Program-made: the position numbers and the translations under genes | Notes under the pieces: generated by a model | What the model was told of the DNA's origin: nothing | The model's input: only the letters and a program-made list of their open reading frames with translations | Databases searched by the model: none | Assembly: GCA_019873665.1 (NCBI GenBank) | Contig: JAIOAV010000005.1 | Coordinates: 1 to 64,000, forward strand | Direction of reading: 5' to 3' | DNA from: Chloroflexota bacterium | GTDB lineage: Bacteria; Chloroflexota; Anaerolineae; JAAYEA01 | DNA length: 64,000 bases | Shown here: in pieces, positions 31,583-52,298 of the stretch | How positions within the stretch are numbered: the stretch's first letter is position 1 | How the letters are laid out: the number at the start of each line of letters is the position of its first letter

Positions 31583-31807
31583 CGCAGGCCTCTTCTCATA
31601 CGACTCGGCTGCTTGTAGTATAACCTGTCCCGGGGGAGTGTCAACGGCGCTGGCCGTGGCCACAATCTCGAACGCGCATCGCTTTGCCCCAGCAGCACCG
31701 TGGTGGTATAATACCGCTGCTGATTGGCAGGTCAACGAGGACAGCGGGCAGTGAGGGCGTCCCACTTGGCCGCCCTCTCTTTGTGCAAACCTCAACAGGA
31801 GGGCTGT

Positions 31808-32611
31808 GTGTTTCACGCCATCGTCTGCATCAAACAGGTGCCGGAAACAACCGAAGTTCAGATCAACCCCGAGACCAATACCCTGGTGCGCGAGGGGGTC
31901 AAGGGGATCATCAATCCCTTCGACACCTACGCCATCGAGGAGGCGATCCGCTGGAAGGAAAAGCTCGGCGGCAAGGTAACCGTCATCTCGATGGGGCCGC
32001 CGCAAGCGATGGACGCGCTGAAGGAGGCGGTGGCAATGGGGTGCGACGCGGCGGTGCTCTTGAGCGACCGGGCGTTTGCCGGCGCGGATACATGGGCTAC
32101 CGCCTACACGCTCTCTCAGGCGATCCGCAGGCTGGGCGATTTCGACCTCATCCTCTGCGGCAAGCAAGCCATTGACGGCGACACCGGTCAGGTCGGGCCG
32201 GGCATCGCGCGCCAACTGGGCATCCCACAGCTCACATACGTTTCCAAGATCCCGGAGCTGCACTTGAAGCAGCGCGCCATCCGCGTGGAGCGGTTGCTCG
32301 AGGAAGGACGCGAGATGGTAACCAGCACGCTGCCGGCGCTGGTGACGGTCGTGAAGGACATCAACCAGCCGCGCTACCCGACGGTGTTGGGCATCCGCCG
32401 CGCCACGCGCCTGACGATCCCCATCTGGACCGCCGCCGATCTGGAGGGGGCCGACCCGAGCAAGTTCGGCCTGCAAGGCTCGCCCACGCAGGTGATCCGC
32501 ATCTTCACGCCGCCGCCACGTGCCGCTGTCTGCGAGATGATCGCTGCCGAGTCGGCAGAAGAGGCTGCGGCCGCGCTGGTGGAGCGCCTGCTAGCGGAAA
32601 AGGTGTTCTAA
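31808..32611 (+). CDS. etfB: Electron transfer flavoprotein beta subunit
   Basis: (M)FHAIVCIKQVPET…VREGVKGIINPFDTYAIEEA… classic EtfB N-terminus; GTG start with RBS caggaggg; tataat -10 ~95 nt upstream. Confidence 0.85.
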   Translation: MFHAIVCIKQVPETTEVQINPETNTLVREGVKGIINPFDTYAIEEAIRWKEKLGGKVTVISMGPPQAMDALKEAVAMGCDAAVLLSDRAFAGADTWATAYTLSQAIRRLGDFDLILCGKQAIDGDTGQVGPGIARQLGIPQLTYVSKIPELHLKQRAIRVERLLEEGREMVTSTLPALVTVVKDINQPRYPTVLGIRRATRLTIPIWTAADLEGADPSKFGLQGSPTQVIRIFTPPPRAAVCEMIAAESAEEAAAALVERLLAEKVF

Positions 32612-37848: not shown

Positions 37849-38877
37849 ATGAGACGAATCGGCATCATCGGGGCTGGGACAATGGGGAGGTGGCACGCGC
37901 AACGGTGGGCCGCCTTGATCAGACGCGGCGCGCCGGCGCAACTGGCCGGCTTTTTCGACATGGACGTAACGACGGCGGAGAGCGCCGCCGCCCAATACGG
38001 CGGTCGCGCCTTTGCCTCGCAGGATGCACTCTTTGCCGACGTTGACACGGTGATCGTTACTACACCGACTCCCACACACCGCGACGTAGTTGTGGCGGCG
38101 GCAGCACGGGGCAAGGACATCTTTTGCGAAAAGCCGATGGCGCGCCACCAGAAGGATTGTCGCGATATGATCGCCGCCTGCGCCGCGTCCGGCTCGCGCC
38201 TCTTTGTCGGGCAGGTGGTGCGCTTCTTTCCCGAGTTCGCCCGCGCACACGAGGTTCTGGCACGCGGCGATATCGGCCAGCCTGGTGTCATCCGCACGAC
38301 GCGGGGCGGCAGCCATCCCAAAACAGGCCGCAACTGGTATGCGAATTATGAACAGAGCGGCGGCGTGATCCTGGACCTGGCGATTCACGACCTGGACTAT
38401 GTGCGATGGTGCTGCGGCGATGTGGAGCGCGTCTATGCGCAGGGGTTGATGCATGCCGGCCTGCCACAGACCGATTACGCGCTTATCTCCCTCCGCTTCA
38501 AGAGCGGCGCAGTGGGCCATGTCGAGGCGAGCTGGGCGTATCCGCCGGGCAAATTCATTACGCGCCTAGAGATCGCCGGCGTGAGCGGTCTCATCGAGTT
38601 CAACAGCGAGCGGATGACGCCGCTGCAAGTGTGGGCGCAGGCCGAGGCACAGGGACAGGGTCCCAGCGTCACCATCCCGGAAAGCCCGCTGGCCGAGGAG
38701 GATGACCCGTACTACCGGGAGGACAAACACTTTCTGGATTGCCTGATCAGCGGCGAGCCGTTCATGATCCAGCCAGAAGATGGCATGGCGGCGGTAGAGG
38801 TCGCCCTGGCTGCCATCCACTCTTTGCGCACCGGCAAGCCTGTTCCGCTGGATTCCTTCGAGGAGGTGCTGCCATGA
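37849..38877 (+). CDS. Gfo/Idh/MocA-family NAD(P)-dependent oxidoreductase
   Basis: Rossmann motif IGIIGAGTMG, EKP motif (FCEKPMA), C-terminal alpha/beta domain. Confidence 0.8.
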   Translation: MRRIGIIGAGTMGRWHAQRWAALIRRGAPAQLAGFFDMDVTTAESAAAQYGGRAFASQDALFADVDTVIVTTPTPTHRDVVVAAAARGKDIFCEKPMARHQKDCRDMIAACAASGSRLFVGQVVRFFPEFARAHEVLARGDIGQPGVIRTTRGGSHPKTGRNWYANYEQSGGVILDLAIHDLDYVRWCCGDVERVYAQGLMHAGLPQTDYALISLRFKSGAVGHVEASWAYPPGKFITRLEIAGVSGLIEFNSERMTPLQVWAQAEAQGQGPSVTIPESPLAEEDDPYYREDKHFLDCLISGEPFMIQPEDGMAAVEVALAAIHSLRTGKPVPLDSFEEVLP

Positions 38878-39872
38878 AGATCGGCTTGCTCAGCTTTGCC
38901 CATATGCACGCCAGCAGCTATGCCGCCTGCCTGAAGCGGATTCCGGGGGTCGAGATCGTGGGCATCGCCGACGATAACGCCGCGCGTGGTCAGGCTGCGG
39001 CGGCCCAGTTCGCCACCCGCTACTATGCCGACCCGCAGGAACTGCTGGCACAAGGGCTGGATGGCGTCATCGTCTGTTCAGAGAACAGCACGCATCTGAT
39101 GTGGGTACAACTTGCCGTCGGGCGTGTGCCGTATCTGCTGTGCGAAAAGCCGATCGCTGCCACGCTGGCAGATGGCCGCGCCATCATCGCCATGTGCGCG
39201 CAACGTGGCACCAAGCTACAAATTGCCTTTCCCGTGCGCTTCAGCCCGCCGGTGCGCCGCGCCAAAGAGATGCTGGACCAGGGCAGACTGGGGCGCATCT
39301 ATGGCGTCAAGACGACGAATCACGGCTACATGCCCGGCGGTTGGTTCATCCAGAAGGAACTATCCGGCGGTGGCGCGGTCATTGACCATACGGTGCACGT
39401 GATTGATGTGTTGCGCTGGTTCTGGAACACTGAGGTCACCGAGGTGTATGCTGAGGTCGGCTTTGATCTTATCCATCCGGGACTGGGCATTGACGATGTG
39501 GGCCTTCTGTCGTTCAAGCTGGCAAACGGCGCTTTTGGCACGCTGGACACCAGTTGGTCCCGCCCCAAAAGCTATGCCACATGGGGCGATGTAACGCTGG
39601 AGATCGTCGGCGAAAAGGGCACGCTCCTGATAGACGCCTTCGCCCAGCACATTGACGTCTACAGCGACGCGGTGGGCAAAGGGCAATGGGCCGGCTGGGG
39701 CAGCGACATTGACCTGGGGCTGATCCGCGATTTCACCGACGCCATCGCCACAGGCCGCGAGCCATCCATCACTGGCGAAGATGGGCTGCGTGCGCTGGAG
39801 GTGGCGCTGGCGGCATATCGTTCCGCAGAGACAGGGCAGCCAGTCAAGTTGCCGCTGCAAGGGGCCGCCTAG
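38874..39872 (+). CDS. Gfo/Idh/MocA-family NAD(P)-dependent oxidoreductase (second paralog)
   Basis: MKIGLLSFAHMHA…LCEKPIA…; ATGA start/stop overlap with the upstream gene. Confidence 0.8.
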   Translation: MKIGLLSFAHMHASSYAACLKRIPGVEIVGIADDNAARGQAAAAQFATRYYADPQELLAQGLDGVIVCSENSTHLMWVQLAVGRVPYLLCEKPIAATLADGRAIIAMCAQRGTKLQIAFPVRFSPPVRRAKEMLDQGRLGRIYGVKTTNHGYMPGGWFIQKELSGGGAVIDHTVHVIDVLRWFWNTEVTEVYAEVGFDLIHPGLGIDDVGLLSFKLANGAFGTLDTSWSRPKSYATWGDVTLEIVGEKGTLLIDAFAQHIDVYSDAVGKGQWAGWGSDIDLGLIRDFTDAIATGREPSITGEDGLRALEVALAAYRSAETGQPVKLPLQGAA

Positions 39873-39926: not shown

Positions 39927-40775
39927 ATGCGCGACTCATGGCGAGTGCGCGAGGCGCATTTTCCGCTGCAAGTGCGCTTCGTGCGCCCACACAAGACAGC
40001 CGCTATCAGCGTTACTGGTGTGTCTTGCGCGCTGCACTGCGCGCATTGCGACGGGCGCTATCTGCGCGGCATGATGCCGCTGTCGTCGGCTGACGTGCGC
40101 GATGCCCGCAGTTGCCTCATCTCTGGCGGCTGCGACTTACAGGGGCGTGTGCCGCTCCTGCCGCATTTGCCGCAGATCGTGGCATTGCGTGAGGGTCGGC
40201 GGCTTAACTGGCACGTCGGATTGGCCGACGAGGAGACGATCCGTGCCATCGCGCCGTATGCCGACGTGGTGTCGTTTGACATCGTCGGCGACGACGCGAC
40301 GATCCGCGAGGTGTATGGTCTGTCGGCCACGGTCCCCGACTACTGGCGCACGTATGACCTGCTGCGGCGCTATGCGCGCGTCGTCGTGCCGCATATCACC
40401 ATCGGCTTGCGCGGCGGTCGCATCTCTGGGGAGTATGCCGCGCTGGCCGAGCTGCAGCGACGCGGCGTGGAGACCGTCGTCTATCTCGTCCTGATCCCGA
40501 CGCGCGGGACGGCTTACGCCGAGTGCGCGCCCCCCACCCCGGAGATAGTGGGAGACGTTCTCACCGCGGCGCGCTGCGCGCTGCCAGAGACGGCGCTGTA
40601 TCTCGGCTGTATGCGCCCCGGCGGGAGTTATCGCGATCGTGTGGACGCGATAGCCTTACACGCCGGCGTGAACGCCATTGTCAACCCCGCGCCCGGCGCG
40701 GTGGCGCTGGCGGCAGAGCTGGGGCTGCGCGTGGTGTGGGATGACGAGTGCTGCGTGTTTGAGAATGTCAAATAG
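39927..40775 (+). CDS. Radical SAM protein (biotin-synthase-like; candidate LipS-type lipoyl synthase subunit)
   Basis: CxxxCxxC motif CALHCAHC near the N-terminus; ~280 aa; no LipA-type auxiliary CPNxxEC cluster motif. Confidence 0.6.
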   Translation: MRDSWRVREAHFPLQVRFVRPHKTAAISVTGVSCALHCAHCDGRYLRGMMPLSSADVRDARSCLISGGCDLQGRVPLLPHLPQIVALREGRRLNWHVGLADEETIRAIAPYADVVSFDIVGDDATIREVYGLSATVPDYWRTYDLLRRYARVVVPHITIGLRGGRISGEYAALAELQRRGVETVVYLVLIPTRGTAYAECAPPTPEIVGDVLTAARCALPETALYLGCMRPGGSYRDRVDAIALHAGVNAIVNPAPGAVALAAELGLRVVWDDECCVFENVK

Positions 40776-40790
40776 AAAGCGAGCCATCAT

Positions 40791-41819
40791 TTGGCGTTGG
40801 ACCACGTGAATACGGGCGATCTTGCAGATGCAGCACGTCTTGCGGATGCGATCAAGGTATCCATCGGCACGGCGGGCGTGCTCGGTCTGGCCGAGGTGGT
40901 GCAGCATGATCCGCCGACCACCGCCTATCTAATGGTCGGCGACAGGTGTGGCCGCGACTGCGCCTTTTGCGCCCAGGCGCGATCCAGCCGGGCGCGCGCT
41001 AACGCACTCTCGCGGGTGACCTGGCCACCCTATGATGCCGCCGAGACGGTGGCGCGACTCGCCGATGCTTACCTCGCGGGCCGTCTGCGACGCGCTTGCC
41101 TACAGGTTACAGCGACGCCGGACTCGCTGGCGCGAGCAGAAGAGATCGTGGCGCGCATCCGCGCCATGTCGAAGATCCCCATCTCCGCATCGGTGGCGCT
41201 GCGCCATGCGGAGGATGCGGCCCGGTTGTTCGCCGCGGGGGCGGATCGGCTGGCCCTGGCGCTGGATGCCGCCACGCCGGAGCTGTTCGAGCGGCTGAAA
41301 ACACCGGGCTGGCAGCGACAATGCAACCTGCTGGCGGAGCTGGCAGAGCGTTTTCCGGGCCGAATCAGCACCCACCTCATCGTCGGGCTGGGCGAGACCG
41401 AGGCCGATCTCGTGCGATGCTTTGCCTGGCTGACGGAACGCGGCATCTGCATCGGGCTTTTCGCCTTTACACCGGTGCCGGGCACTGCGCTCGCGGATCG
41501 TCTGCCGCCGGCGCTGGCCAGTTACCGCCGGGTGCAGGCGGCGCGCTGTCTTATCGCGCAAGGCAGGCTAGATGTGGCGCAGATGCGGTTTTCGTCGGAG
41601 GGGCAGATCGTCAGCTATGGCCTGTCATCGCGACAACTCGCTGCGCTGCTGGGCTCCGGTGACGCCTTTCGCACGGCCGGATGCCCTGACTGCAACCGGC
41701 CATACTATAATGAGCGGCCCGGCGGGGTGATGTACAACTATCCGCGGCCTCTGACGCCTCACGAGGTGCAGGAGGCCGTGGCAATCGTGCAGAGCGCGCT
41801 GACCACGCCAACGCCCTGA
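40791..41819 (+). CDS. Radical SAM protein (biotin-synthase-like; candidate LipS-type lipoyl synthase subunit)
   Basis: CxxxCxxC motif CGRDCAFC in a context similar to LipA (LMVGDRCGRDCAFCAQ); C-terminal CPDC pair; directly upstream of gcvH. Confidence 0.6.
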   Translation: MALDHVNTGDLADAARLADAIKVSIGTAGVLGLAEVVQHDPPTTAYLMVGDRCGRDCAFCAQARSSRARANALSRVTWPPYDAAETVARLADAYLAGRLRRACLQVTATPDSLARAEEIVARIRAMSKIPISASVALRHAEDAARLFAAGADRLALALDAATPELFERLKTPGWQRQCNLLAELAERFPGRISTHLIVGLGETEADLVRCFAWLTERGICIGLFAFTPVPGTALADRLPPALASYRRVQAARCLIAQGRLDVAQMRFSSEGQIVSYGLSSRQLAALLGSGDAFRTAGCPDCNRPYYNERPGGVMYNYPRPLTPHEVQEAVAIVQSALTTPTP

Positions 41820-41922
41820 GCGGGCAGCAGTAACCAGACGGATCACAACAAGGGGACCAACGCGTGATGCGGCCGCATCATGCGACACCCGCAAGATAAT
41901 CATCAAGAGGAGGAAGAACGAC

Positions 41923-42324
41923 ATGACCGTTTATCTGCCCGGTCTTCTGTACACCAAGACGCATGAATGGGTCAAGATCGAGCAAGAGGGGGACCAAGCC
42001 GTGGCCGTCAGCGGCATCTCCGACTATGCTCAGGAAGAGCTCAACGACGTGGTCTATGTTGAGCTACCAGAGGAGGGAGACGAGTTCGAGCAAGGGGAAA
42101 CATATGCGGTTATCGAGTCAGTCAAGGCCGCATCTGACATCCAGATGCCCCTGAGCGGCGAGATCATCGCCGTCAACCGTGCATTGGAGGACACCCCGCA
42201 ACTGGTCAACGAGGACCCCTATGGCCGGGGATGGATCATCAAGCTGCGTGTCCGCAACCAGAGCGAGGCAGATCAGTTGCTGGACGCCGCAGCGTATGAG
42301 GCGTTCATTGCCGAGGAGGGCTAA
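41923..42324 (+). CDS. gcvH: Glycine cleavage system H protein (lipoyl carrier)
   Basis: …YTKTHEWV…AVIESVKAASDIQMPLSGEI… with the lipoyl-lysine in ESVKA. Confidence 0.9.
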   Translation: MTVYLPGLLYTKTHEWVKIEQEGDQAVAVSGISDYAQEELNDVVYVELPEEGDEFEQGETYAVIESVKAASDIQMPLSGEIIAVNRALEDTPQLVNEDPYGRGWIIKLRVRNQSEADQLLDAAAYEAFIAEEG

Positions 42325-42325
42325 G

Positions 42326-43675
42326 ATGTCTTACGTTCCGCAAAACGACGCGGAACGGCAGGCGATGTTGGCAGTGCTGGGGCTGCGCGATGTGAGGGAG
42401 CTGTTCGATGACATCCCCGCCGAGTTCAGGTTCCCCGATCTGGACCTGTTTCCGCCAATGGCCGAGTTGGAGGTCATGCGGCGGCTGCAGGCGCTGAGCG
42501 AGAACAACCTGGACACCCAGCACTATATCAGTTTTTTGGGCGCAGGAGCCTATGACCACTTTGTGCCCAGCGTCGTGCGCCACATCACCGGCCGCTCCGA
42601 GTTCTACACCGCCTACACGCCGTACCAGCCGGAGATCAGCCAGGGCACGCTGCAGAGCATCTTTGAGTACCAGAGCATGATCTGCGCGCTCACCGGCATG
42701 GACGTGGCCAACGCTTCGCACTACGACGGGGCGACAGCGATGGCAGAGGCGGTGATGATGGCCTATCACGTGGGGCGCAAGAAGCGCCGCAAGGCGCTTA
42801 TCGCGCCTACCGTCCACCCCGAATACCGCGCTACCGTTCGCACCTACACGCAGAGCCTGGACATCGAGATCGTCGAAGGGCTCCCGGATATGGATCCGCT
42901 AAACCTGGACGTGGGCGCGCTGGCGGCAATGGTGGACAAGGACACCGCTTGCGTCGTCGTACAGAACCCCGATTTTTTCGGGCAGCTCTACAAGTGGGAT
43001 GCAGTGGCGGACGCGGCGCACGCCGCAGGGGCGCTCCTAGTGGTGAGCGCCGACCCCATCTCGCTGGGGCTTTTCCAGCCACCGGGCGCGTATGGTGCAG
43101 ACATCGTCATCGGCGAGGGTCAGCCGCTGGGGCTGGGCCTACAGTTCGGCGGCCCATACCTCGGCTATTTCGCCTGCCGCAAGGAGCATGTGCACCGCAT
43201 GGCAGGGCGCGTCGTGGGCGAGACGGTGGACGTGGACGGCAAGCGAGGCTATGTGCTGACGTTGACCGCCCGCGAGCAGCACATCCGCCGCGAGCGCGCC
43301 ACCTCGAACATCTGCACGAACCAGGCGCTCTGCGCGCTGGCCGCATCGGTCTATCTGGGAGCGATGGGCCGCACCGGGCTGCGTCGCATCGCCGAGTTGT
43401 GCTATCACAAGGCGCACTATGCGGCACAGCAGGTCGGCTCCTTGCCCGGCTTTGCGCTGGCAAGCCAGCAGCCCTTCTTCAAGGAATTCGTGGTCCGTTG
43501 CCCGCAGCCTGTGGACGAGATCAACGACCGCCTGCTGGATGCCAACATCATCGGCGGTTACGATCTGAGCCGCGACTATGCGCTGGAGAACCACATGCTG
43601 CTCTGCGTTACGGAGACGATAGACCGCGATGAGATAGACCATCTGGTGGCAACCCTGCGGGAGGTGACCACATGA
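42326..43675 (+). CDS. gcvPA: Glycine dehydrogenase (decarboxylating) subunit 1
   Basis: [20 protein letters not shown]… canonical GcvPA; ATG 2 nt after the gcvH stop. Confidence 0.9.
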
Positions 43676-45144
43676 CAGAGCCCCTGCTGAACGAGCTGAG
43701 TGGCGAGGGACGCTGCGGCTGCCTCTTGCCCGATCTGGACGTGCCCCCAGCCGAGCTGCCCGCCGAGTTCCTGCGAGATGATCTCCCCCTGCCAGAGGTG
43801 GGGGAGGTGGATTTGGTGCGCCACTACGTGCGGCTCTCGCAGATGAACTATGCCGTAGATACAGGCTTTTACCCGCTCGGCTCCTGCACCATGAAGTATA
43901 ACCCCAAGGTCAACGAGGAGACGGCGCGGCTGCCCGGCTTTGTGCACACGCATCCCTACCAAGATGAGCTGACCGTCCAGGGAAGCCTGCAGCTCATCTG
44001 GGAATTGCAAGAGTTCCTGCGCGAGATTGGCGGTTTTGCCGGGGTCTCGCTGCAACCGGCAGCAGGCGCGCAAGGTGAATTTGCCGGCGTGCTCATGATC
44101 CGTGCCTATCACCGGGAGCGTGGCGATGCCAAGCGCCATATCATGCTCATCCCCGATTCCGCGCACGGCACCAACCCCGCTTCCACGAGCATGAGCGGCT
44201 ATGACACGGTGGAGATCAAGTCCGACGCGCGGGGAAACGTGGACCTGGAGGACTTGCGGGCGCACTGCAACGATGAGGTTGCCGGGCTTATGCTCACCAA
44301 CCCCAATACGCTGGGCCTCTTTGATGAGCATGTCGTCGAGATCGCGGCGCTGGTACACGGCTGTGGTGGGCTGCTATATGGCGACGGCGCTAACATGAAC
44401 GCCCTGCTGGGGATCGTCAAGCCCGGAGAGCTGGGCTTTGATGTGATGCACTATAACCTGCACAAGACCTTCTCCACGCCACACGGTGGCGGCGGCCCGG
44501 GCGCTGGACCGGTCGGCGTCAATGAAAAGTTGCTTCGCTACCTACCCGGGCCGATCGTAACCCGGGTTGAGGTGAAGGGAGAACACACGCAGGAGCATGA
44601 GGACGAGGATATTCCATCTTATGTCTACATCTGGTCCGTACCAGAGGCATCCATTGGGCGAATGAAATCGTTCTACGGCAACTTTGGTGTGCTGGTCCGC
44701 GCCTATACCTATATCTGCTCCCTGGGCGCGGCAGGGTTACGCAAGGCCAGCGAGACTGCCGTTCTCAATGCCAACTATCTGCTCCACCGGCTCAAGGGGC
44801 TCTACCCACTGCCCTATGACCGCCGCTGTATGCACGAGTTCGTCCTGTCCGGACGCCGCGAGGCCGCGCCGGACATTCATACGCTGGATATCGCCAAGCG
44901 TCTGATGGATTACGGCTTCCATCCACCGACGATTTACTTCCCGCTCATCGTGCCCGAGGCGCTGATGATCGAGCCGACCGAGACGGAGAGCAAACGCACG
45001 CTGGATGCCTTCTGCGAGGCGATGCACAAGATCGCCGCCGAGGCCGTGGAACACCCGGAGCTATTGCACGATGCGCCGCACGGCACGCCGGTGCGTCGGC
45101 TGGACGAGGTGCGCGCGGCTCGTCAGCCCAAGCTCACTTGGTAA
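43672..45144 (+). CDS. gcvPB: Glycine dehydrogenase (decarboxylating) subunit 2 (PLP-binding)
   Basis: …[13 protein letters not shown]…[16 protein letters not shown]… (PLP-Lys in HKTF); ATGA overlap with gcvPA. Confidence 0.9.
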
Positions 45145-45208: not shown

Positions 45209-48200
45209 TCAGGGCAGCCTGCGCTCCCACACGCCATCGTTGGTGCCAGCATAGATCAACTGGCAGCGGACATAATCCAGCGCCAGCGCTTGCACCACGC
45301 GGTTCTCCAGCCCTTCATCGAGAGGTCTCCAGTAGAGGCCACCATTGGTCGTGATCAGCACGCCGCTCCCCGATGTCCCGGCGAATACGACCTGTGCACT
45401 GAGGGGATCCAGCGCGAGGCTATAAGTGCGGCCCAGGCCACCGACATACGTCCAGCTCTGGCCGCGGTTGTCGCTGCGAAAGACGCCGCCGTCCGTCCCC
45501 GCATAGACGATGGCCGGATTCGCCTGGCTGGTGACGATCGTCCAGACCACATCATTGCCCAGCGGCACATGCGACCACGATGCACCGCCGTTCGTCGAGC
45601 GATAGATGCCTCGGTCATAGGTGCCCGCCAGGATGAGCTGCGGATCCACCGGGTTGACGGATACCGAGCTCATCTGCAAGCTGCCGAGGCCGTTATTGAC
45701 GGCGTTCCACGACGCGCCGCCGTCAACGCTTTTGAAGACACCGGTCATCGCCGTAGCTGCATAGACGGTGCGGTCCACAGCATAGTTGGGGGAGATCGCC
45801 AGGCCGTACACATACGGGCTGGTCAGCCCGGTGTTGGCCGGCTGCCAAGTGATCCCACCATCGGTGGAACGATAGATGCCCGCATCGCCCCATGTGCCGA
45901 CAAAGACATGCCCGGCCGGCGAGGCTGTGGCCGCAATGGCATAGACAGCGACCGACGGCAGGCTGACGTTGGCGTACCACTCGCCGCCGCAGTAAAGGTG
46001 GCGGAAGAGACCACGATCGGTGCCAGCATAGACAGTCTGCGTGTTGCCCGGATCGGTCGCCAACGACTTGATCTCTACAGCCGTGAGGCCGCTCCGTTCC
46101 CAGACGACGGGATAGTCGCGGTAGATCAGCGGCAGTTGCAGCAGCCGGATCACAGTCGGCGTGGGCGTGGGGGTCTGGGTTGGCGTCTCGGTTACGGTGG
46201 GGGTCGCCGATGGCGATGGAGTCGTCGTGGCGGTCGCCGTATCCGTCGGCGTGGCAGTCGGCAGCGGCGAACCGGTCGCCGTCGGGGTCGGCGTCGGTTT
46301 GCTCTTTAGCGTGTAGCGCCACACACCACGCCCCCATGAACCGGCAAAGATCGTACGCCACACATTCGGCGAAACCGCCAGCGACGAGAGATAGGTAAAA
46401 TCAAGCCCCTCGCTAAAGGGCTCCCAACTCACGCCGGCATTCGTGGAATGATAGACACCGTGCTCGTCCGTGGCGACGTACACGGTCTGGTCAAGCAGGA
46501 ACTGCCCCAGCGTGATCGCTGCAACGCCATCATCGGGCAGGCTTGCGCCGACCGGCCGCCATTGGCCCCCGCCATCTGTCGAATAGAGCACCCCGCCGCC
46601 GCCAGCGGCAGTCGCATAGCCAGCAAAGATCGTGTGGTCGGAGATATAGCTAGGCGACAACGCTAATGAGCGGAACGTCACCTCGGCCGCCACCTCTGCC
46701 GGCCACTCTATCACCACGGGAGTCCAGAGGCTGCCGCCGTCAATAGACTTGAAAAGCTGGCCCCGATCTCCTCCCGCAAAGACCGCTTTCGTCTCGCCCG
46801 GCGGGTCAGTCTCGTTATAACCAGGCGACACAGCTACCACGCTGAACGCCGTGCCATCAGATACCAATGCTGTATTCCAGTCGCTGCCCATGTTTGTGGA
46901 CTTTAGAATGCCAGACGGGCCGGCGGCCAAGAACAAGGTCCGATCTGTGAGAAAGCGGGATGGAATGGCGAACATCTGCACGGAGGATCGCTCCGGCACG
47001 GTATAGACTTGCGTCCAAGAGATGCCGCCACGATTCGAGCGATAGACTTGACCATCCTGCCCGCCAGCGAAGACCAGGTTTGAGGCGACGCCGACACTGT
47101 GGATGGAACGCACCGCGCGCGGCAAGCCGCTGTTAGCCGTTTGCCATGTCTGCCCACCATCCGAGGACTGGAAGATGCCTCCCTCCAGCGTGCTGGCCAT
47201 CAGAAAGCGATCCAGGCCAAAGAGTGGCGAGATGCCGACAGAGGTCACATGCAAAGCGTTCAGTCCGATCGAGCTCTGCTGCCAGACATCCTGCACATTC
47301 CGCCGCAGACGGTACACACCGCGGCCCCGAGTTCCCAACCATACGGTCGAGTCGCGGTTGAAGGCTGGCGAGATAGCGACTGATTCGGCAACCGTCTCCT
47401 CGAGGCCATTGTTGAGCATCACCCACTGCAATCGGCCCAGACCATCGCGGCCGTTGGTCGCATACATGATACCACCGACCGGATAGTCCACATCCGGATA
47501 GAAGGAAGCAAAAGCGACCGCGTCGGTCTTGAACGTGGTAGAGAGCGCCACAGAGGAACAGGTGGGGAACGGGTTCAGCTGACTCCAGCCCGCGCCGTTA
47601 TCCGCTGTCCAGAGCAGCCCCTGACCCTCGGTCGCAACGAATATCGTCCGGTCAGCGGCGTAATCGGGGGAGAGGACGATCTGCCGTACGCTCGCCCCAT
47701 CCGGCACCTGGTAGAACGGATTCCAGTTAACGCCATCGTCTGATGAGCGCAGGATCCGCCCATCGCTGGTGCCCACAAAGATCACCGGGCTCCGCGGGTA
47801 TGTCGGCGCCAGGGCCACCGCGGAGATCACCACACCCGTTACCGGCGCTGCCAGGATCAAAGTCCATGTGTCGCCACCATTTGTGGAGCGATAGAGAGCG
47901 CTGGACGTGGATACCACGCTGGCGAAGACAATGTGGTCCGTGCGGAAGTTAGGAGAGATGGCAATAGCCGGAATGCCGATGCGTCCGGTCGGTTCTGGCG
48001 ATGGCATGGCGGGCGAGCAGTCACCCCATGTTCTCCCTTGATCATCAGAGCACCAGAGGCCGTCTTGGCGTGTCCCGACATAGATCATGCCACCTGTAGC
48101 ACCGCTTTCCGCCGCAAAATCCGGCGAGATCGCCATCGTCTGGATGGGCACATTCACCTGCCGGCCGGTCTCCCGCCAAGTATCAGCGCCATCATTCGAG

Positions 48201-48493
48201 ACAAAGACGCCACAAGAGGTGCTGGCGAAAAGGGTAGTGTCGCGGTTATAGGCGGGAGAGACAACGAGGCTTGAGACCGTGCCTCCCCATGGTCCGTTTG
48301 TCGTCCAATATCCCTCGGGGGTCTGCGTGGGGATCGCGGTCGGCAAGACTTGCGCGAACACACTGCCAGCAGAGTGGGGCACCATGACCCGGTTGGAGAT
48401 GCCTGGGGCGATGAGCAACGATACTACCAAAACCGCCCCGATTACGAACATCATGCCGCTAGGCCCATGTGTTGGCTCGTGCGTGTGGTTCAT
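45209..48493 (-). CDS. Secreted BNR/Asp-box repeat protein (two beta-propeller-like regions joined by a Thr/Pro-rich linker)
   Basis: >12 S-x-D-x-G-x-T/S-W Asp-box motifs (STNGGDTW, SDDGVNW, SSDGGQTW, STDGGITW, SDNRGQSW …), N-terminal signal/TM, central PTPTPTATGSPLPTATPTDTATATTTPSP linker. Confidence 0.75.
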   Translation of the reverse strand: MNHTHEPTHGPSGMMFVIGAVLVVSLLIAPGISNRVMVPHSAGSVFAQVLPTAIPTQTPEGYWTTNGPWGGTVSSLVVSPAYNRDTTLFASTSCGVFVSNDGADTWRETGRQVNVPIQTMAISPDFAAESGATGGMIYVGTRQDGLWCSDDQGRTWGDCSPAMPSPEPTGRIGIPAIAISPNFRTDHIVFASVVSTSSALYRSTNGGDTWTLILAAPVTGVVISAVALAPTYPRSPVIFVGTSDGRILRSSDDGVNWNPFYQVPDGASVRQIVLSPDYAADRTIFVATEGQGLLWTADNGAGWSQLNPFPTCSSVALSTTFKTDAVAFASFYPDVDYPVGGIMYATNGRDGLGRLQWVMLNNGLEETVAESVAISPAFNRDSTVWLGTRGRGVYRLRRNVQDVWQQSSIGLNALHVTSVGISPLFGLDRFLMASTLEGGIFQSSDGGQTWQTANSGLPRAVRSIHSVGVASNLVFAGGQDGQVYRSNRGGISWTQVYTVPERSSVQMFAIPSRFLTDRTLFLAAGPSGILKSTNMGSDWNTALVSDGTAFSVVAVSPGYNETDPPGETKAVFAGGDRGQLFKSIDGGSLWTPVVIEWPAEVAAEVTFRSLALSPSYISDHTIFAGYATAAGGGGVLYSTDGGGQWRPVGASLPDDGVAAITLGQFLLDQTVYVATDEHGVYHSTNAGVSWEPFSEGLDFTYLSSLAVSPNVWRTIFAGSWGRGVWRYTLKSKPTPTPTATGSPLPTATPTDTATATTTPSPSATPTVTETPTQTPTPTPTVIRLLQLPLIYRDYPVVWERSGLTAVEIKSLATDPGNTQTVYAGTDRGLFRHLYCGGEWYANVSLPSVAVYAIAATASPAGHVFVGTWGDAGIYRSTDGGITWQPANTGLTSPYVYGLAISPNYAVDRTVYAATAMTGVFKSVDGGASWNAVNNGLGSLQMSSVSVNPVDPQLILAGTYDRGIYRSTNGGASWSHVPLGNDVVWTIVTSQANPAIVYAGTDGGVFRSDNRGQSWTYVGGLGRTYSLALDPLSAQVVFAGTSGSGVLITTNGGLYWRPLDEGLENRVVQALALDYVRCQLIYAGTNDGVWERRLP

Positions 48494-48653: not shown

Positions 48654-51600
48654 CTACTCTTGCGGCTCCGCGCCGCTTCGTCTTGCCTTCTCCTCCGGCG
48701 TTGGGAATCGCTCCAGGACTGTAGCCCATTCGGGAAGCAGCACACGATCCCCTAGTTGCAGGGCATTCATCGGCTTGGCTTCAGGCATTCGGTCCGGCGC
48801 AGGAAGCGCAAAGATGCCGATCGGTGTGCCCGCCTCGTTATAGCGCTTCTCCACATATGCCATGCCCATCTGCATCCCGCCGATGAGCGTGCAGCTTGTC
48901 ACCCAGCCGATGTGTTGACCGTTGCGGTTGACGACGGGATCATCCTGCCGCAGGGCGCGTGCGCCGCTGCGGTCCACGCGGAAGCGGACCACTGCCATCG
49001 TCCGGTTGGCTTCCTGGGCAATGCACGCCTGTCGGCCAATGAAGAACGGCTTGTGGAACTTGACAAAGAGGGCGAACCCCGCCTCTGTTGGTTTGATGTC
49101 ATGCGGGCCAGCCAGCTCGTGTCCATAGAGCGGCAGCCCCGCCTCCATGCGCGTCGAGTCGCGCGCGGCCAGGCCACATGGCCGCAGGCCCTCCTTCTCT
49201 CCGTTTTCCAGCAAGAGTCGCCAGAGGCGCACCGCATGATCCGGATGTACGTACAGCTCGTAGCCAATATCCTCGCCAGTGTAACCGGTGCGCGCCACGA
49301 TGAGCGGGATGCCTGCCAGCACGGTTTCGATGAAATGCGTGCGGCGAATGCGCGCCAGCGCGCGCTGTTGGCGGGGATCTTCCGTCAAGCTCTGCAAGAT
49401 AGCCAGCGACTTGGGCCCCTGCAAAGCCAGGTCCACCAGCCGATCCGCGCCGCTTTCGGAGGACTGCAGGTTGCGGATGGTAACCGGCGCGGGCGTCTGC
49501 ATGGCGGGATTGGCGCGGTCTATACGCACCTCGCCCGCGTTCACCGCGCGCAGCCATGCCAGGTCCTTGTCGGTGTTGGCCGCATTCACCACCACCAGAT
49601 AGCGGTCCCAGCAGCGACGGTAGATCATGAGGTCATCCAACACATGTCCATCCGGATCCATCAGATAGCTATAACATGATTGGCCGTCACGTAGCCACCG
49701 CACGTAATTCGTGCTCACCAGGTCGAGGAACGCAGCGGCATGCTCCCCCGCCACCTCGAGGACGCCCATGTGCGCCACGTCAAACAAGCCTGCCGCCCGG
49801 CGCACTGCCTGGTGTTCTTCTGCCACACTGGTGTACCACACCGGCATCTCCCACCCGGCAAAGGGGATGATCTTGCGGGTGAGACGGCGATGCTCTTCAT
49901 AGAGCGGCGTTCGCTTGAGAGGCTGTTCTTTGTCTTCCCAGTGGAATTCTCGCTTATCGCTGGCGGGCAACAGCGACGCATACGCCTTTTGCCCCACAAA
50001 ATACGGTTTGGTCAGCGCGAAATAGGCAGGATATGCCTGCTGCAGATGTGCCAGCGAGAGTTTCTCGGTGGCCGATGGCAGCGGCCAGCCCAACTGCGTC
50101 CGCAGCACTGGCTCGGCCTCCGGCCCCATCACCGTCGCGCCCCTCGCGTGCAGCGCCTCCAGAAGCACCCTTCGCGCCGTCTGGTGAACCAGGATCTCGT
50201 AGCGGGGCATGTCACCGCTTGCTGCCAGTGCGACCCAGGCCATCTGGTCACGCAACGCTTCGCCGGCCTGTAGTGCGCCATGCCACCAGACGGCTGGCGA
50301 CAGCTCGACGCCTAGCCCGTGCAGGATCGCGGGCGCTGCTGTCCCCTGCAACACGATCAATGCCAGCCGATCCTCAGCCGGCGGCTCGTCGCCCAGGTCG
50401 TCTACCACCACTGGCCCCTCAACCTTGGCCAAAAGGTCATCAGGGTCAAAGACCACATACCCATCCGAGAGATCCCGCAGCCACGCGCGCACCCGCTGCC
50501 GCGTCTCGGCAGGCAAGGTCAGCCAATAGCGGTCCGATTCCGTATCGCCAGCGGACATACGCCAGAGAGTGGCGTCCGACATCAGGGTGCCATCTGGCTC
50601 CAGAAGAAGGGTGCGATCCGCCTGTTGCGGGCGGAGCTCAGCCAGATTGCGCGTCGCTACCTGCTGCAAGAACGCACTGGCGCGGTCGCCGCTGATCTGC
50701 AGGATGCCGGCGGCCGTCAGATCAACGCCCACAGCGCCCTCCGTAGTGGCTTGCAAGATGGGCGTCGCCTCCGCCACGCTCGTGGCGGAGGCATTGCTCC
50801 CCTCGGCACTATCATAGTGCGGGTAGCCGGAACCGCGCGCGGCGGTTTCGGCCGGGGTTGCCTCGGCTATTCTGTTCACTTGACGTTTGACCTCCTCAAT
50901 GATTTCGAACGGGATCTTGCCGCGAGGCATCTCGCCGCGCGACCCAATGTAGTAAAATGGGTGGACGTTGGTCACAATACGATGGATGAGGCCGGCCAGG
51001 ACGTCCATGTCCGTCGGCCCCATGCCGCGCTGCGTCAGCCACGGAGTGCCGAGCCGCACGCCGCTTGCCAGCGCTGTTACGGTGTCGCCGGGGAGGGTGT
51101 TCTTGTTGGCCACCAGCCCGCACAGTTCCATGATCCGCACAGCGATCTCGCCGCGCACCGGCAACCCATTCGGCGTCTCGATCGCGCGAAGATCGAGCAA
51201 GCACATGTGCGTATCGGTCCCGCCATAGGCGACGCGCAGCCCGCGCGACTGCAGGCCTGCCGCCAGCGCCTGGGCATTCACCACGATCCGCTGTTGGAGC
51301 TCGCGGAACTGCGGCGTGGCAGCGATTTTGAACGCGACCGCCATCGCCGCGAACTTGTTCGTGTGTGGCCCACCCTGCGCTCCGGGGAAGACGGCGGCAT
51401 CCACCAGCTTGGCCCTATCTTCATCTGTGGTCATGATCACGGCACCACGCGGCCCGCACATGGTCTTGTGCGTGGTAAAGGTGATCACATCCGCCAGTCC
51501 CACCGGCGAAGGGCAGACGCCCGCGCACACCAGGCCCGCCGTATGCGCGATATCAGCCATGAGCAGCGCGCCACAGGCATCGGCGATCTCACGGAATGCC

Positions 51601-52298
51601 TTCCAATCCGGCGCCCACGGGTAGGAGGTAAAGCCAGCGACGATCAGCTTGGGGCGGTACTCCAGCGCGAGCCGTTGAATCGCCTCATAGTCGAGGCGCT
51701 CCGTTTTGGGGTCCACGCCATACGAGACGACATGATACCGTCGGCCGGAGATGTTGAACTCGCTGCCATGCGTCAGGTGGCCGCCCTGGAAGAGATCCAT
51801 CCCCATCAGCGTGTCGCCAGCTTTCAGGAAGGCGTCATAGACGGCTAGGTTGGCGGCAGCGCCCGATAGCGGCTGCACGTTCACATAGATGTCTGCTGCA
51901 GACACATCGGGGGTGGCAAAGAGGCTGGCGCAGCGCCGCTGTGCCAAGCACTCGATAAAGTGCACATAGTCTGCGCCCTTGTAAAAGCGTCTGTCTCCAT
52001 AGCGACGATAGTTGGCCAATTGGCGGGAGAGATCGAGGATGCCCGCCTCATCCTCTTCCATCATGCGTAGCGGCGGGTAGCCCTCTGCGTAAACGTTCGT
52101 GAACACCGAGGCCAGAGCCTCGCGCACCGGCTGCGGACAGATGCTCTCCGATGGGATAAAGATGAGCCGCCGCGCCTGGCGCTCCTCCTCCAAACGGATA
52201 ATCAGGTCAATGTCCGCGTCGACATCGGCCAAGCGACGACCCCATACGTCGCGATAGTCGCCCCCCTCATGCGACGATTGACCTGTCCCTTCTGCCAT
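48654..52298 (-). CDS. Tri-domain fusion protein: serine hydroxymethyltransferase + GcvT-like folate-binding domain + complete aminomethyltransferase (glycine cleavage T protein)
   Basis: Residues ~20-470 are a full SHMT (…FIPSESICPQPVREALASVFTNVYAEGYP…, PLP-Lys motif TTHKTMCGPRGAVIM). Residues ~800-1200 are a full GcvT (RTPLYEEHRRLTRKIIPFAGWEMPVWYTSVAEEHQAVRRAAGLFDVAHMGVLEVAGEHAAAFLDLVSTNYV…). The intervening ~300 aa carry a second, degenerate GCV_T-like domain (…ILQISGDRASAFLQQVATRNLAEL…). It is a single uninterrupted 1214-codon frame. Confidence 0.8.
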   Translation of the reverse strand: MAEGTGQSSHEGGDYRDVWGRRLADVDADIDLIIRLEEERQARRLIFIPSESICPQPVREALASVFTNVYAEGYPPLRMMEEDEAGILDLSRQLANYRRYGDRRFYKGADYVHFIECLAQRRCASLFATPDVSAADIYVNVQPLSGAAANLAVYDAFLKAGDTLMGMDLFQGGHLTHGSEFNISGRRYHVVSYGVDPKTERLDYEAIQRLALEYRPKLIVAGFTSYPWAPDWKAFREIADACGALLMADIAHTAGLVCAGVCPSPVGLADVITFTTHKTMCGPRGAVIMTTDEDRAKLVDAAVFPGAQGGPHTNKFAAMAVAFKIAATPQFRELQQRIVVNAQALAAGLQSRGLRVAYGGTDTHMCLLDLRAIETPNGLPVRGEIAVRIMELCGLVANKNTLPGDTVTALASGVRLGTPWLTQRGMGPTDMDVLAGLIHRIVTNVHPFYYIGSRGEMPRGKIPFEIIEEVKRQVNRIAEATPAETAARGSGYPHYDSAEGSNASATSVAEATPILQATTEGAVGVDLTAAGILQISGDRASAFLQQVATRNLAELRPQQADRTLLLEPDGTLMSDATLWRMSAGDTESDRYWLTLPAETRQRVRAWLRDLSDGYVVFDPDDLLAKVEGPVVVDDLGDEPPAEDRLALIVLQGTAAPAILHGLGVELSPAVWWHGALQAGEALRDQMAWVALAASGDMPRYEILVHQTARRVLLEALHARGATVMGPEAEPVLRTQLGWPLPSATEKLSLAHLQQAYPAYFALTKPYFVGQKAYASLLPASDKREFHWEDKEQPLKRTPLYEEHRRLTRKIIPFAGWEMPVWYTSVAEEHQAVRRAAGLFDVAHMGVLEVAGEHAAAFLDLVSTNYVRWLRDGQSCYSYLMDPDGHVLDDLMIYRRCWDRYLVVVNAANTDKDLAWLRAVNAGEVRIDRANPAMQTPAPVTIRNLQSSESGADRLVDLALQGPKSLAILQSLTEDPRQQRALARIRRTHFIETVLAGIPLIVARTGYTGEDIGYELYVHPDHAVRLWRLLLENGEKEGLRPCGLAARDSTRMEAGLPLYGHELAGPHDIKPTEAGFALFVKFHKPFFIGRQACIAQEANRTMAVVRFRVDRSGARALRQDDPVVNRNGQHIGWVTSCTLIGGMQMGMAYVEKRYNEAGTPIGIFALPAPDRMPEAKPMNALQLGDRVLLPEWATVLERFPTPEEKARRSGAEPQE

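What the first reader, a model, noticed from the sequence alone, without database searches (positions are those of the whole stretch)
39927..45144. Two biotin-synthase-like radical SAM genes directly upstream of gcvH-gcvPA-gcvPB (no gcvT): candidate LipS1/LipS2-type two-protein lipoyl synthase
Both radical SAM proteins have a single CxxxCxxC motif and lack the LipA auxiliary-cluster signature. The second one's motif context (LMVGDRCGRDCAFC) resembles LipA's LGxxCTRxCxFC. They sit immediately 5' of the lipoyl-carrier H protein gene. In Thermococcus the lipoyl group is made by two separate radical SAM proteins (LipS1/LipS2) annotated as biotin synthases. This arrangement suggests a bacterial example, with the H protein as the direct substrate. 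The T component is missing from this operon and is supplied by the SHMT-GcvT fusion elsewhere.
Basis: partly seen in the sequence, partly recalled or inferred. Interest (0 to 1): 0.65.

Follow-up and report, generated by a model that had tools for sequence, protein, structure and literature searches.

The report
LipS1/LipS2 lipoyl synthase in glycine-cleavage operon

Summary
Window 39927-45144 (+) holds five tightly packed genes: lipS1, lipS2, gcvH, gcvPA and gcvPB.

- ORF1 passes NCBI's curated LipS1 equivalog model (273.7 bits, cut-off 230). ORF2 passes the LipS2 model (346.4 bits, cut-off 270). Both score far below the BioB and LipA cut-offs.
- Each is about 38-39% identical, over its full length, only to its own Thermococcus kodakarensis counterpart.
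- Every experimentally defined ligand of the radical SAM and auxiliary [4Fe-4S] clusters is conserved.

It is not new. Bacterial LipS1/S2 were shown genetically and biochemically in 2023, and were reported then in Chloroflexota. H-protein genes were already reported as neighbours of LipS genes.

I examined 80 species-level genomes carrying LipS2. In 53 of them lipS1 is adjacent, and in 44 glycine-cleavage genes lie beside it. The usual orders are gcvT-gcvH-gcvPA-gcvPB-lipS1-lipS2-lplX-lpd in Bacillota and lipS1-lipS2-gcvT-gcvH-gcvPA-gcvPB in Chloroflexota.

Two things are particular to this lineage. The Lpl/LipM-family gene that lies between lipS2 and gcvH in its nearest species-level relatives is missing here. 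The T protein is supplied by a convergent three-part SHMT-GcvT'-GcvT fusion gene.

No ligase, lipA, lipB, lipM or lpd is present in the 64-kb window. The rest of the genome could not be read.

The parts
39927..40775 (+). lipS1, 282 aa. Radical SAM protein predicted to insert sulfur at C6 of 8-mercaptooctanoyl-lysine.
   Evidence: NCBIfam NF053742 LipS1 equivalog, 273.7 bits against a cut-off of 230, E 1.8e-81. 37.8% identical to TK2109. Radical SAM cysteines C34/C38/C41 and auxiliary ligands C228/C275/C276/H156 are conserved. No sequence match in the PDB.
40791..41819 (+). lipS2, 342 aa from the TTG start (alternative GTG start at 40806 gives 337 aa). Radical SAM protein predicted to insert sulfur at C8 of octanoyl-lysine.
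   Evidence: NCBIfam NF053743 LipS2 equivalog, 346.4 bits against a cut-off of 270, E 1.4e-103. 39.2% identical to TK2248. Radical SAM cysteines C53/C57/C60 and auxiliary ligands C103/C298/C301/H195 are conserved and invariant in 34 homologues. AlphaFold model pLDDT 91; the nearest solved folds are HydE, BioB and LipA at TM about 0.5.
41861..41884 (+). Hairpin with a 10-bp stem in the 103-nt lipS2-gcvH spacer. Role unknown, and it may not be functional.
   Evidence: Mostly retained in the 94%-related locus L001. Folding z-score only -1.9. No T-run follows it, and there is no Rfam match.
41923..42324 (+). gcvH, 133 aa. Lipoyl-carrier H protein, with the lipoyl-lysine K68 in ESVKA. Presumed substrate of LipS2 and LipS1.
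   Evidence: TIGR00527 gcvH equivalog, 151.4 bits against a cut-off of 115.85. Pfam GCV_H E 7.9e-43. K68 located. Strong Shine-Dalgarno sequence AAGAGGAGGAAG.
42326..43675 (+). gcvPA, 449 aa. Glycine dehydrogenase subunit 1.
   Evidence: NF001696 GcvPA equivalog, 630.5 bits against a cut-off of 364. ATG one base after the gcvH stop.
43672..45144 (+). gcvPB, 490 aa. Glycine dehydrogenase subunit 2.
   Evidence: NF003346 GcvPB equivalog, 738.6 bits against a cut-off of 441. Its start overlaps the gcvPA stop by 4 nt.
48654..52298 (-). 1214-aa fusion: SHMT, then a diverged GcvT-like domain, then a complete GcvT. It supplies the T protein that is missing from the operon.
   Evidence: NCBIfam SHMT 413 bits and gcvT equivalog 310 bits against a cut-off of 235.85. 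Pfam SHMT, GCV_T (two stretches) and GCV_T_C. The middle region is 29% identical to the C-terminal GcvT, E 3e-21. The same gene lies convergent to gcvPB in L001, L010 and L016.

Best explanation
This is a glycine-cleavage operon that carries its own lipoyl synthase of the LipS1/LipS2 type. It comes from an uncultured bacterium whose nearest relatives are Chloroflexota (Anaerolineae-like).

Inferred mechanism, taken from the characterised T. kodakarensis enzymes:
1. Apo-GcvH is first octanoylated on K68 by an Lpl/LipM/LipB-type enzyme. That enzyme is not encoded in this window.
2. LipS2 uses its radical SAM [4Fe-4S] cluster (C53/C57/C60) to make a 5'-deoxyadenosyl radical. The radical abstracts H from C8 of the octanoyl chain. 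LipS2 then donates a sulfide from its auxiliary [4Fe-4S] cluster (C103, C298, C301, H195).
3. LipS1 does the same at C6 of the 8-mercaptooctanoyl intermediate, with radical SAM cysteines C34/C38/C41 and auxiliary ligands C228, C275, C276 and H156. The product is (dihydro)lipoyl-GcvH.
4. Lipoyl-GcvH then works with GcvPA/PB from the same operon and with the T domain of the convergent SHMT-GcvT fusion.

What is shown here: family membership, conservation of all mapped ligands, tight operon packing, and recurrence of the lipS-gcv linkage across many genomes.

What is inferred: catalytic activity, the order of sulfur insertion, GcvH as the substrate, and the source of the octanoyl group and of the electrons.
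For: - Both proteins exceed NCBIfam's curated LipS1 and LipS2 equivalog cut-offs. bioB scores are 15.3 and 51.5 bits against a cut-off of 225, and lipA scores 23.5 bits against 310.
- Reciprocal best matches to TK2109 and TK2248, with no significant cross-match.
- All ligands defined by Cys/His-to-Ala mutagenesis in PMC9585515 align with identical residues. The LipS2 ligands are invariant in 34 homologues of 46-84% identity.
- The five genes are packed with spacers of 15, 103, 1 and -4 nt, and no terminator-like site lies on the + strand inside the operon.
- In 80 species-representative genomes found with a LipS2 profile, lipS1 is adjacent in 53 and glycine-cleavage genes are adjacent in 44. 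In Bacillota the figure is 27 of 31.
- The window's own gene order is kept in relatives whose LipS2 is 85%, 62%, 52% and 48% identical (L001, L002, L010, L016).
- PMC10332631 proves LipS1/S2-dependent lipoylation in bacteria and reports the genes in Chloroflexota.
- PMC9585515 reports H-protein genes as neighbours of bacterial LipS1 and LipS2.
Against: - No biochemical or genetic test of these particular proteins exists.
- The 64-kb window holds no lipoate-protein ligase, LipM, LipB, LipT or Lpd gene, so the pathway is incomplete as seen.
- The rest of the genome could not be read. The source contig is not in the look-up index, and the source species is not among the 80 best-matching loci kept from the genome collection, where the best LipS2 identity was 58%.
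- Substrate specificity for GcvH, as opposed to any lipoyl domain, rests only on gene linkage.
Confidence: 0.9

Rival explanations
1. The two proteins are biotin synthases or other BioB/HydE/PylB-like radical SAM enzymes, as such proteins were historically annotated, and sit next to the gcv genes by chance.
For: Some database members of the LipS2 family are still named 'biotin synthase'. The nearest solved structures by sequence and by fold are HydE and BioB.
Against: - The bioB equivalog scores are 15.3 and 51.5 bits against a cut-off of 225. HydE, PylB and HmdB matches are weaker still.
- The fold matches reach only TM about 0.5 at 17-23% identity.
- The LipS-specific auxiliary ligands are all present.
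- The gcv linkage recurs in 44 of 80 genomes, which chance does not explain.
Confidence: 0.02
2. They are genuine LipS1/LipS2, but they serve as the general lipoyl synthase for all lipoyl proteins of the cell, or for an LbpA/sHdr sulfur-oxidation system. GcvH would then be not the specific substrate but just one client.
For: - PMC10332631 found LipS1/S2 first with LbpA/sHdr clusters. It also reports that 42% of LipS1/S2-containing bacteria have sHdr.
- In many Anaerolineae lipS2 sits with lpd and lplX and without gcv genes.
Against: - The window contains no sHdr or LbpA gene, and the H protein passes the true gcvH equivalog model.
- The lipS genes are embedded in gcv operons in 44 of 80 genomes.
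- In T. kodakarensis the enzymes act on an H-protein peptide.

This rival overlaps with the best explanation rather than excluding it.
Confidence: 0.2
3. The lipS genes are relics. Lipoylation in this organism is done by a canonical LipA encoded elsewhere, or by scavenging lipoate. Loss of the neighbouring Lpl-family gene would mark decay of the module.
For: - The Lpl/LipM-family gene present between lipS2 and gcvH in L010 and L016 is absent here and in L001.
- LipA often co-occurs with LipS1/S2 in bacteria.
Against: - Both ORFs are intact and have the high third-position G+C typical of the coding genes in this window (GC3 0.80 and 0.76).
- They keep every catalytic ligand.
- LipS1 is 94% and LipS2 85% identical in L001, and both are 62-68% identical in L002, without disruption.
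Confidence: 0.04

Closest known systems
LipS1 (TK2109) and LipS2 (TK2248) of Thermococcus kodakarensis, the two-protein lipoyl synthase (Neti et al. 2022, PMC9585515)
   Same: - Orthologous pairing, with reciprocal matches at E 8e-51 and 3e-65.
- Full-length alignment at 38-39% identity.
- The same Cx3Cx2C motif, and the same auxiliary-cluster ligands: three Cys plus one His in each protein.
- The same C-terminal signatures...ECCV at the end of LipS1 and GCPxCNRPYYNERPG in LipS2.
   Different: - The window's genes are bacterial.
- They are adjacent to each other and embedded in a gcvH-gcvPA-gcvPB operon. In T. kodakarensis the two genes lie more than 130 genes apart.
- No activity data exist for these proteins.
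Bacterial sLpl(AB)-LipS1/S2 lipoate assembly pathway of Thioalkalivibrio and Hyphomicrobium (Tanabe et al. 2023, PMC10332631)
   Same: The same two radical SAM families, in a bacterium. The paper already reports lipS1/S2 in Chloroflexota, and in some lineages pairing with LipM instead of a ligase.
   Different: - No sLpl(AB) ligase, lipT, LbpA or sHdr genes are in the window.
- The partner here is a true GcvH with the P-protein genes.
- The Lpl-family gene seen in related operons (lplX, 240-285 aa) scores well below NCBI's LplA model cut-offs (128 bits against 480).
Canonical lipoyl synthase LipA / LIAS
   Same: The same net reaction: two sulfurs inserted into an octanoyl-lysine, with a sacrificial auxiliary [4Fe-4S] cluster. 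The sequence around the radical SAM motif is similar (weak lipA hits of 23-27 bits). The fold is related at TM about 0.46-0.5.
   Different: - LipA is one protein and makes both insertions.
- It carries an N-terminal Cx4Cx5C motif and a C-terminal RSSY motif, both absent here.
- It inserts at C6 first, whereas the LipS system inserts at C8 first.
Biotin synthase BioB and the [FeFe]-hydrogenase maturase HydE
   Same: These are the nearest solved structures by sequence and by fold. Like BioB, each LipS protein inserts a single sulfur atom.
   Different: Family scores are far below the cut-offs. The auxiliary cluster type and its ligands differ. The genomic context is lipoylation and glycine cleavage, not biotin or hydrogenase genes.

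Membership tests
LipS1 family lipoyl synthase | Score at or above the curated cut-off of the NCBIfam equivalog model NF053742 | tested here: met
   273.7 bits against a cut-off of 230, covering profile positions 1-268 of 268.
LipS1 family lipoyl synthase | Radical SAM Cx3Cx2C motif plus the auxiliary [4Fe-4S] ligands equivalent to TK2109 C230, C276, C277 and H159 | tested here: met
   C34/C38/C41, C228, C275, C276 and H156 all align with the T. kodakarensis residues.
LipS1 family lipoyl synthase | Inserts sulfur at C6 of an 8-mercaptooctanoyl-lysyl substrate | not testable with these tools
   Needs an enzyme assay. Inferred from PMC9585515.
LipS2 family lipoyl synthase | Score at or above the curated cut-off of the NCBIfam equivalog model NF053743 | tested here: met
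   346.4 bits against a cut-off of 270, covering profile positions 1-292 of 292.
LipS2 family lipoyl synthase | Radical SAM Cx3Cx2C motif plus the auxiliary ligands equivalent to TK2248 C85, C276, C279 and H178 | tested here: met
   C53/C57/C60, C103, C298, C301 and H195 align. All are invariant in 34 homologues.
LipS2 family lipoyl synthase | Inserts sulfur at C8 of an octanoyl-lysyl substrate | not testable with these tools
   Needs an enzyme assay. Inferred from PMC9585515.
LipS1/LipS2 two-protein system | Both partners encoded, usually in synteny | tested here: met
   The genes are 15 nt apart on the same strand. They are adjacent in 53 of 80 related genomes.
sLpl(AB)-LipS1/S2 pathway (Tanabe 2023) | An associated lipoate:protein ligase (or a LipM) that loads octanoate onto the carrier protein | tested here: inconclusive
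   None is present in the 64-kb window. This rests on NCBIfam and Pfam scans of all called genes and on an HMM of the operon-linked Lpl-family gene run against all six frames. The rest of the genome was not available.
sLpl(AB)-LipS1/S2 pathway (Tanabe 2023) | Link to LbpA and the sHdr sulfur-oxidation genes, and lipT | tested here: not met
   No such genes are in the window. [quoted passage not shown]
Biotin synthase BioB | Score at or above the TIGR00433 equivalog cut-off of 225 bits | tested here: not met
   15.3 bits for ORF1 and 51.5 bits for ORF2.
Canonical lipoyl synthase LipA | TIGR00510 cut-off of 310 bits, an N-terminal Cx4Cx5C auxiliary motif and a C-terminal RSSY motif | tested here: not met
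   23.5 bits for ORF2 and no hit for ORF1. Neither motif is present in either protein.
Glycine cleavage H protein GcvH | TIGR00527 equivalog cut-off and the lipoyl-lysine in the E-S-V-K-A motif | tested here: met
   151.4 bits against a cut-off of 115.85. K68 lies in ESVKA.

The most novel reading that the evidence does not exclude
In this Chloroflexota sub-lineage the Lpl/LipM-family gene that lies between lipS2 and gcvH in the nearest species-level relatives (L010, L016) has been lost from the operon. If the genome has no ligase or octanoyltransferase anywhere, GcvH would have to be octanoylated by an unrecognised route. Together with the three-part SHMT-GcvT'-GcvT fusion, this would define a remodelled glycine and one-carbon module.
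Probability: 0.07. Interest if true: 0.5.

Novelty: new member of a known kind. Interest (0 to 1): 0.15.

Why it matters
For annotation, these two genes should be named LipS1 and LipS2 family lipoyl synthases, not biotin synthases or generic radical SAM proteins.

The survey made here shows that glycine-cleavage operons with a built-in LipS1/LipS2 are common in Bacillota and Chloroflexota, often with an Lpl-family gene and lpd as well. This fits organisms in which the glycine cleavage system is the main or only user of lipoate. The published neighbourhood analysis lists only the H-protein family as a neighbour, so this is a modest extension of it.

Nothing here challenges current understanding of lipoate biosynthesis.

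Tried and rejected
- **Reading beyond the window.** I looked up three window proteins to recover the 106-kb source contig and search it for lipA, lplA and lipM. None was on record.
- **Finding the source genome.** Presence of lipA, lipB, lipM or lplA genome-wide therefore stays untested.
- **Riboswitch.** An Rfam scan of the whole window, looking for a glycine riboswitch before the gcv genes, gave no match at gathering thresholds.
- **Promoters and terminators.** The scan of 37.5-45.4 kb gave no more sites than shuffled sequence.
- **Upstream genes as part of the system.** I considered whether etfB, fdx-etfA, the acyl-CoA dehydrogenase gene, the 2-oxoacid:ferredoxin oxidoreductase genes and the two Gfo/Idh/MocA genes belong to it, for example as an electron supply. 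I rejected this as unsupported. The etf, acyl-CoA dehydrogenase and oxidoreductase genes are syntenic only in the close relatives L001 and L002, and are absent upstream in L016, which has a full 10-kb flank.
- **Literature.** Searches for a described gcv-lipS operon or for an SHMT-GcvT fusion found nothing beyond the two LipS papers.
- **PDB sequence search with LipS1.** Nothing significant was found.
- **Formal phylogeny.** I did not build a tree with BioB, LipA and HydE. The curated equivalog scores and the reciprocal matches answer the same question.

Full report
**Observation**

ORF listing shows five co-directional genes on the + strand at the reported coordinates:
- a 282-aa ORF at 39927-40775;
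- a 342-aa ORF at 40791-41819;
- gcvH at 41923-42324;
- gcvPA, whose true ATG is at 42326, one base after the gcvH stop;
- gcvPB at 43672-45144.

Spacers within the block are 15, 103, 1 and -4 nt, and no terminator-like site lies on the + strand inside it. Each radical SAM protein has one CxxxCxxC motif. Neither has the LipA Cx4Cx5C or RSSY signatures.

**Identity of the two radical SAM proteins**

Pfam sees only the generic Radical_SAM domain. NCBIfam has curated equivalog models for exactly this system:
- ORF1 scores 273.7 bits on NF053742 'LipS1 family lipoyl synthase' (cut-off 230).
- ORF2 scores 346.4 bits on NF053743 'LipS2 family lipoyl synthase' (cut-off 270).
- Both matches cover the full profiles.
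- The bioB model gives 15.3 and 51.5 bits against a cut-off of 225. The lipA model gives 23.5 bits against 310.

I took the T. kodakarensis TK2109 and TK2248 sequences from the supplement of Neti et al. 2022 and corrected obvious OCR slips against the printed DNA. The cysteine numbering then matched the paper.
- ORF1 is 37.8% identical to LipS1 and ORF2 is 39.2% identical to LipS2, over their whole lengths.
- BLASTP is reciprocal: E 8e-51 and 3e-65, with cross-pairs not significant.

**Cluster ligands**

Neti et al. mapped the auxiliary [4Fe-4S] ligands by mutagenesis: LipS1 C230, C276, C277 and probably H159; LipS2 C85, C276, C279 and H178. All of them, and the radical SAM cysteines, align with identical residues here:
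- LipS1: C34/C38/C41, C228, C275, C276, H156.
- LipS2: C53/C57/C60, C103, C298, C301, H195.

The LipS2 ligands are invariant across 34 homologues of 46-84% identity.

**Structure**

An AlphaFold model of LipS2 is confident (pLDDT 91.2, pTM 0.89). No LipS structure has been solved. The nearest folds are HydE, BioB and LipA/LIAS, at TM about 0.5 and 17-23% identity. This agrees with the sequence search of the PDB. LipS1 has no significant PDB sequence match.

**What is already known**

- Neti et al. showed that LipS2 acts first, at C8, and LipS1 second, at C6. They also showed that both families occur in bacteria, where their gene neighbourhoods contain another radical SAM gene, the H-protein family and the Lpl/LipB ligase family.
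- Tanabe et al. 2023 proved LipS1/S2-dependent lipoate assembly in bacteria. They mapped it across GTDB, named Chloroflexota among the carriers, noted lineages that pair LipS1/S2 with LipM rather than a ligase, and stated that LipA often co-occurs.

A bacterial LipS1/S2 is therefore established knowledge, and a lipA elsewhere in the genome would not refute the assignment.

**Relatives and synteny**

A protein search with LipS2 gave 1948 hits at E<=1e-10. The named ones are Chloroflexota and Anaerolineae MAGs and Desulfofundulus. The window's own protein comes from a 106,419-bp NCBI contig.

A profile scan of one genome per species found at least 582 relatives, and the best 80 loci were kept. 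The top identity was 58%, so the source species is not among them.

I located LipS1, the Gcv proteins, SHMT, Lpd and an Lpl-family protein in those loci by tblastn, and clustered the neighbouring ORFs. Of the 80 loci:
- lipS1 is adjacent in 53;
- at least one gcv gene lies within the flank in 44 (27 of 31 Bacillota, 13 of 45 Chloroflexota, and all 4 loci whose taxonomic labels are unclear);
- an Lpl-family gene is present in 43;
- lpd is present in 29.

The typical gene orders are:
- Bacillota: gcvT-gcvH-gcvPA-gcvPB-lipS1-lipS2-lplX-lpd, sometimes followed by glyA.
- Chloroflexota: lipS1-lipS2-gcvT-gcvH-gcvPA-gcvPB, or a split arrangement lpd-lipS2-lplX.

The neighbour I call lplX is 240-285 aa. 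It has the LplA/LipB catalytic domain (Pfam PF21948, E 4.9e-24). It scores below NCBI's LplA cut-offs (128 bits against 480). It weakly matches Thermoplasma LplA in the PDB.

**The window's own clade**

The exact order lipS1-lipS2-gcvH-gcvPA-gcvPB, with a convergent SHMT-GcvT fusion gene, is found in L001 (LipS1 94% and LipS2 85% identical), L010 and L016. L002 keeps the same lipS-gcv order, but no fusion gene was detected in its flank.

In L010 and L016 a 240-aa lplX lies between lipS2 and gcvH. In L002 an enoyl-CoA hydratase gene is there instead. In the window and L001 there is only a spacer of about 100 nt or less. An HMM built from 33 lplX proteins finds nothing in any of the six frames of the window.

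NCBIfam and Pfam scans of essentially all called genes of the window (a few ORFs under about 130 aa were not scanned) show no Lpl, LipM, LipB, LipA, LipT or Lpd. How GcvH is octanoylated in this organism is therefore unknown.

**Mechanism**

The best-supported reading is a glycine-cleavage operon with a built-in lipoyl synthase:
1. An unseen transferase or ligase loads octanoate on GcvH K68.
2. LipS2 thiolates C8.
3. LipS1 thiolates C6. Each uses SAM-derived radical chemistry and sulfide from its auxiliary cluster.
4. The lipoyl-H protein serves GcvPA/PB and the T domain of the fusion protein.

Family membership, ligand conservation and conserved linkage are shown here. Activity, the order of insertion, the substrate and the electron donor are inferred from the archaeal and bacterial model systems.

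**Rivals**

- BioB/HydE-like function is contradicted by the family scores and by the recurrent gcv context.
- A general role, or an LbpA/sHdr-directed role, is not excluded but has no support in the window.
- Decay of the module is unlikely. The ORFs are intact and conserved, and they have the high third-position G+C typical of the coding genes in this window.

**Other checks**

No Rfam family, including the glycine riboswitch, matches anywhere in the window. A hairpin with a 10-bp stem in the lipS2-gcvH spacer is mostly retained in L001, but it is statistically weak.

**Verdict**

The system is a routine member of a characterised family that NCBI's annotation models already name, in a gene arrangement shared by many genomes. 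Interest is low.

The only features that go slightly beyond the literature I could read are the breadth of the gcv-lipS operon linkage, the lineage-specific loss of the operon's Lpl-family gene, and the three-part SHMT-GcvT'-GcvT fusion.

Noticed in passing
window 48654-52298 (-): The 1214-aa 'SHMT-GcvT fusion' has three parts: SHMT (residues about 100-445), a second and diverged GcvT-like domain (about 505-770; 29% identical to the C-terminal one, BLASTP E 3e-21), and a complete GcvT (about 795-1160). The same gene lies convergent to gcvPB in L001, L010 and L016. It is seen in only 2 of the 80 species-level loci examined. No paper describing it was found.
   Followed up: partly
window 41820-41922; L010 3173-3895; L016 11127-11849; L002 11043-11834: The nearest species-level relatives carry a 240-aa Lpl/LipM-family gene between lipS2 and gcvH. 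L002 has an enoyl-CoA hydratase gene at that position. The window has only a 103-nt spacer and its 94% relative L001 a shorter one, so the gene was lost or moved in this sub-lineage.
   Followed up: partly
window 41861-41884 (+): A hairpin with a perfect 10-bp stem (CGCGUGAUGC-GGCC-GCAUCAUGCG) lies in the lipS2-gcvH spacer. No T-run follows it. It is mostly conserved in L001. The folding z-score is only -1.9 and its function is unknown.
   Followed up: partly
window 29840-32611: The mechanical 878-aa PolX ORF on the - strand is over-extended. The PolX model matches only residues 299-867, and the relative's gene is 580 aa. An etfB gene lies on the + strand at about 31.8-32.6 kb, overlapping the spurious N-terminal part. 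It starts an etfB / ferredoxin-etfA / acyl-CoA dehydrogenase / 2-oxoacid:ferredoxin oxidoreductase alpha and beta cluster (about 31.8-37.6 kb) that is conserved in L001 and L002.
   Followed up: partly
window 37849-39872 (+); L025 16884-18853; L050 16860-18814: A pair of Gfo/Idh/MocA oxidoreductase genes sits directly upstream of lipS1 here. A homologous pair (34-43% identity) sits about 1.6 kb downstream of gcvPB in two distant Anaerolineae genomes. This could be a recurring association or simply conserved gene order.
   Followed up: no
loci L017, L039, L052, L053, L054, L081 and others: In many Anaerolineae lipS2 is separated from lipS1 and lies in an lpd-lipS2(-lplX) arrangement, next to a dihydrolipoyl dehydrogenase gene (TIGR01350, 539 bits).
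   Followed up: partly
L002 8793-9158; L003 8780-9142: A small gene of about 120 aa with Pfam PF25653 (HMG-CoA_red_N) lies immediately upstream of lipS1 in two relatives. It is absent at that position in the window.
   Followed up: no
window 45209-48493 (-): A 1094-aa protein lies between the gcv operon and the fusion gene. It has an N-terminal membrane anchor, many BNR/Sortilin-Vps10/Ycf48-like beta-propeller repeats and a Pro/Thr-rich linker. It is inserted here and in L001 but not in L010 or L016, where the fusion gene directly follows gcvPB.
   Followed up: no
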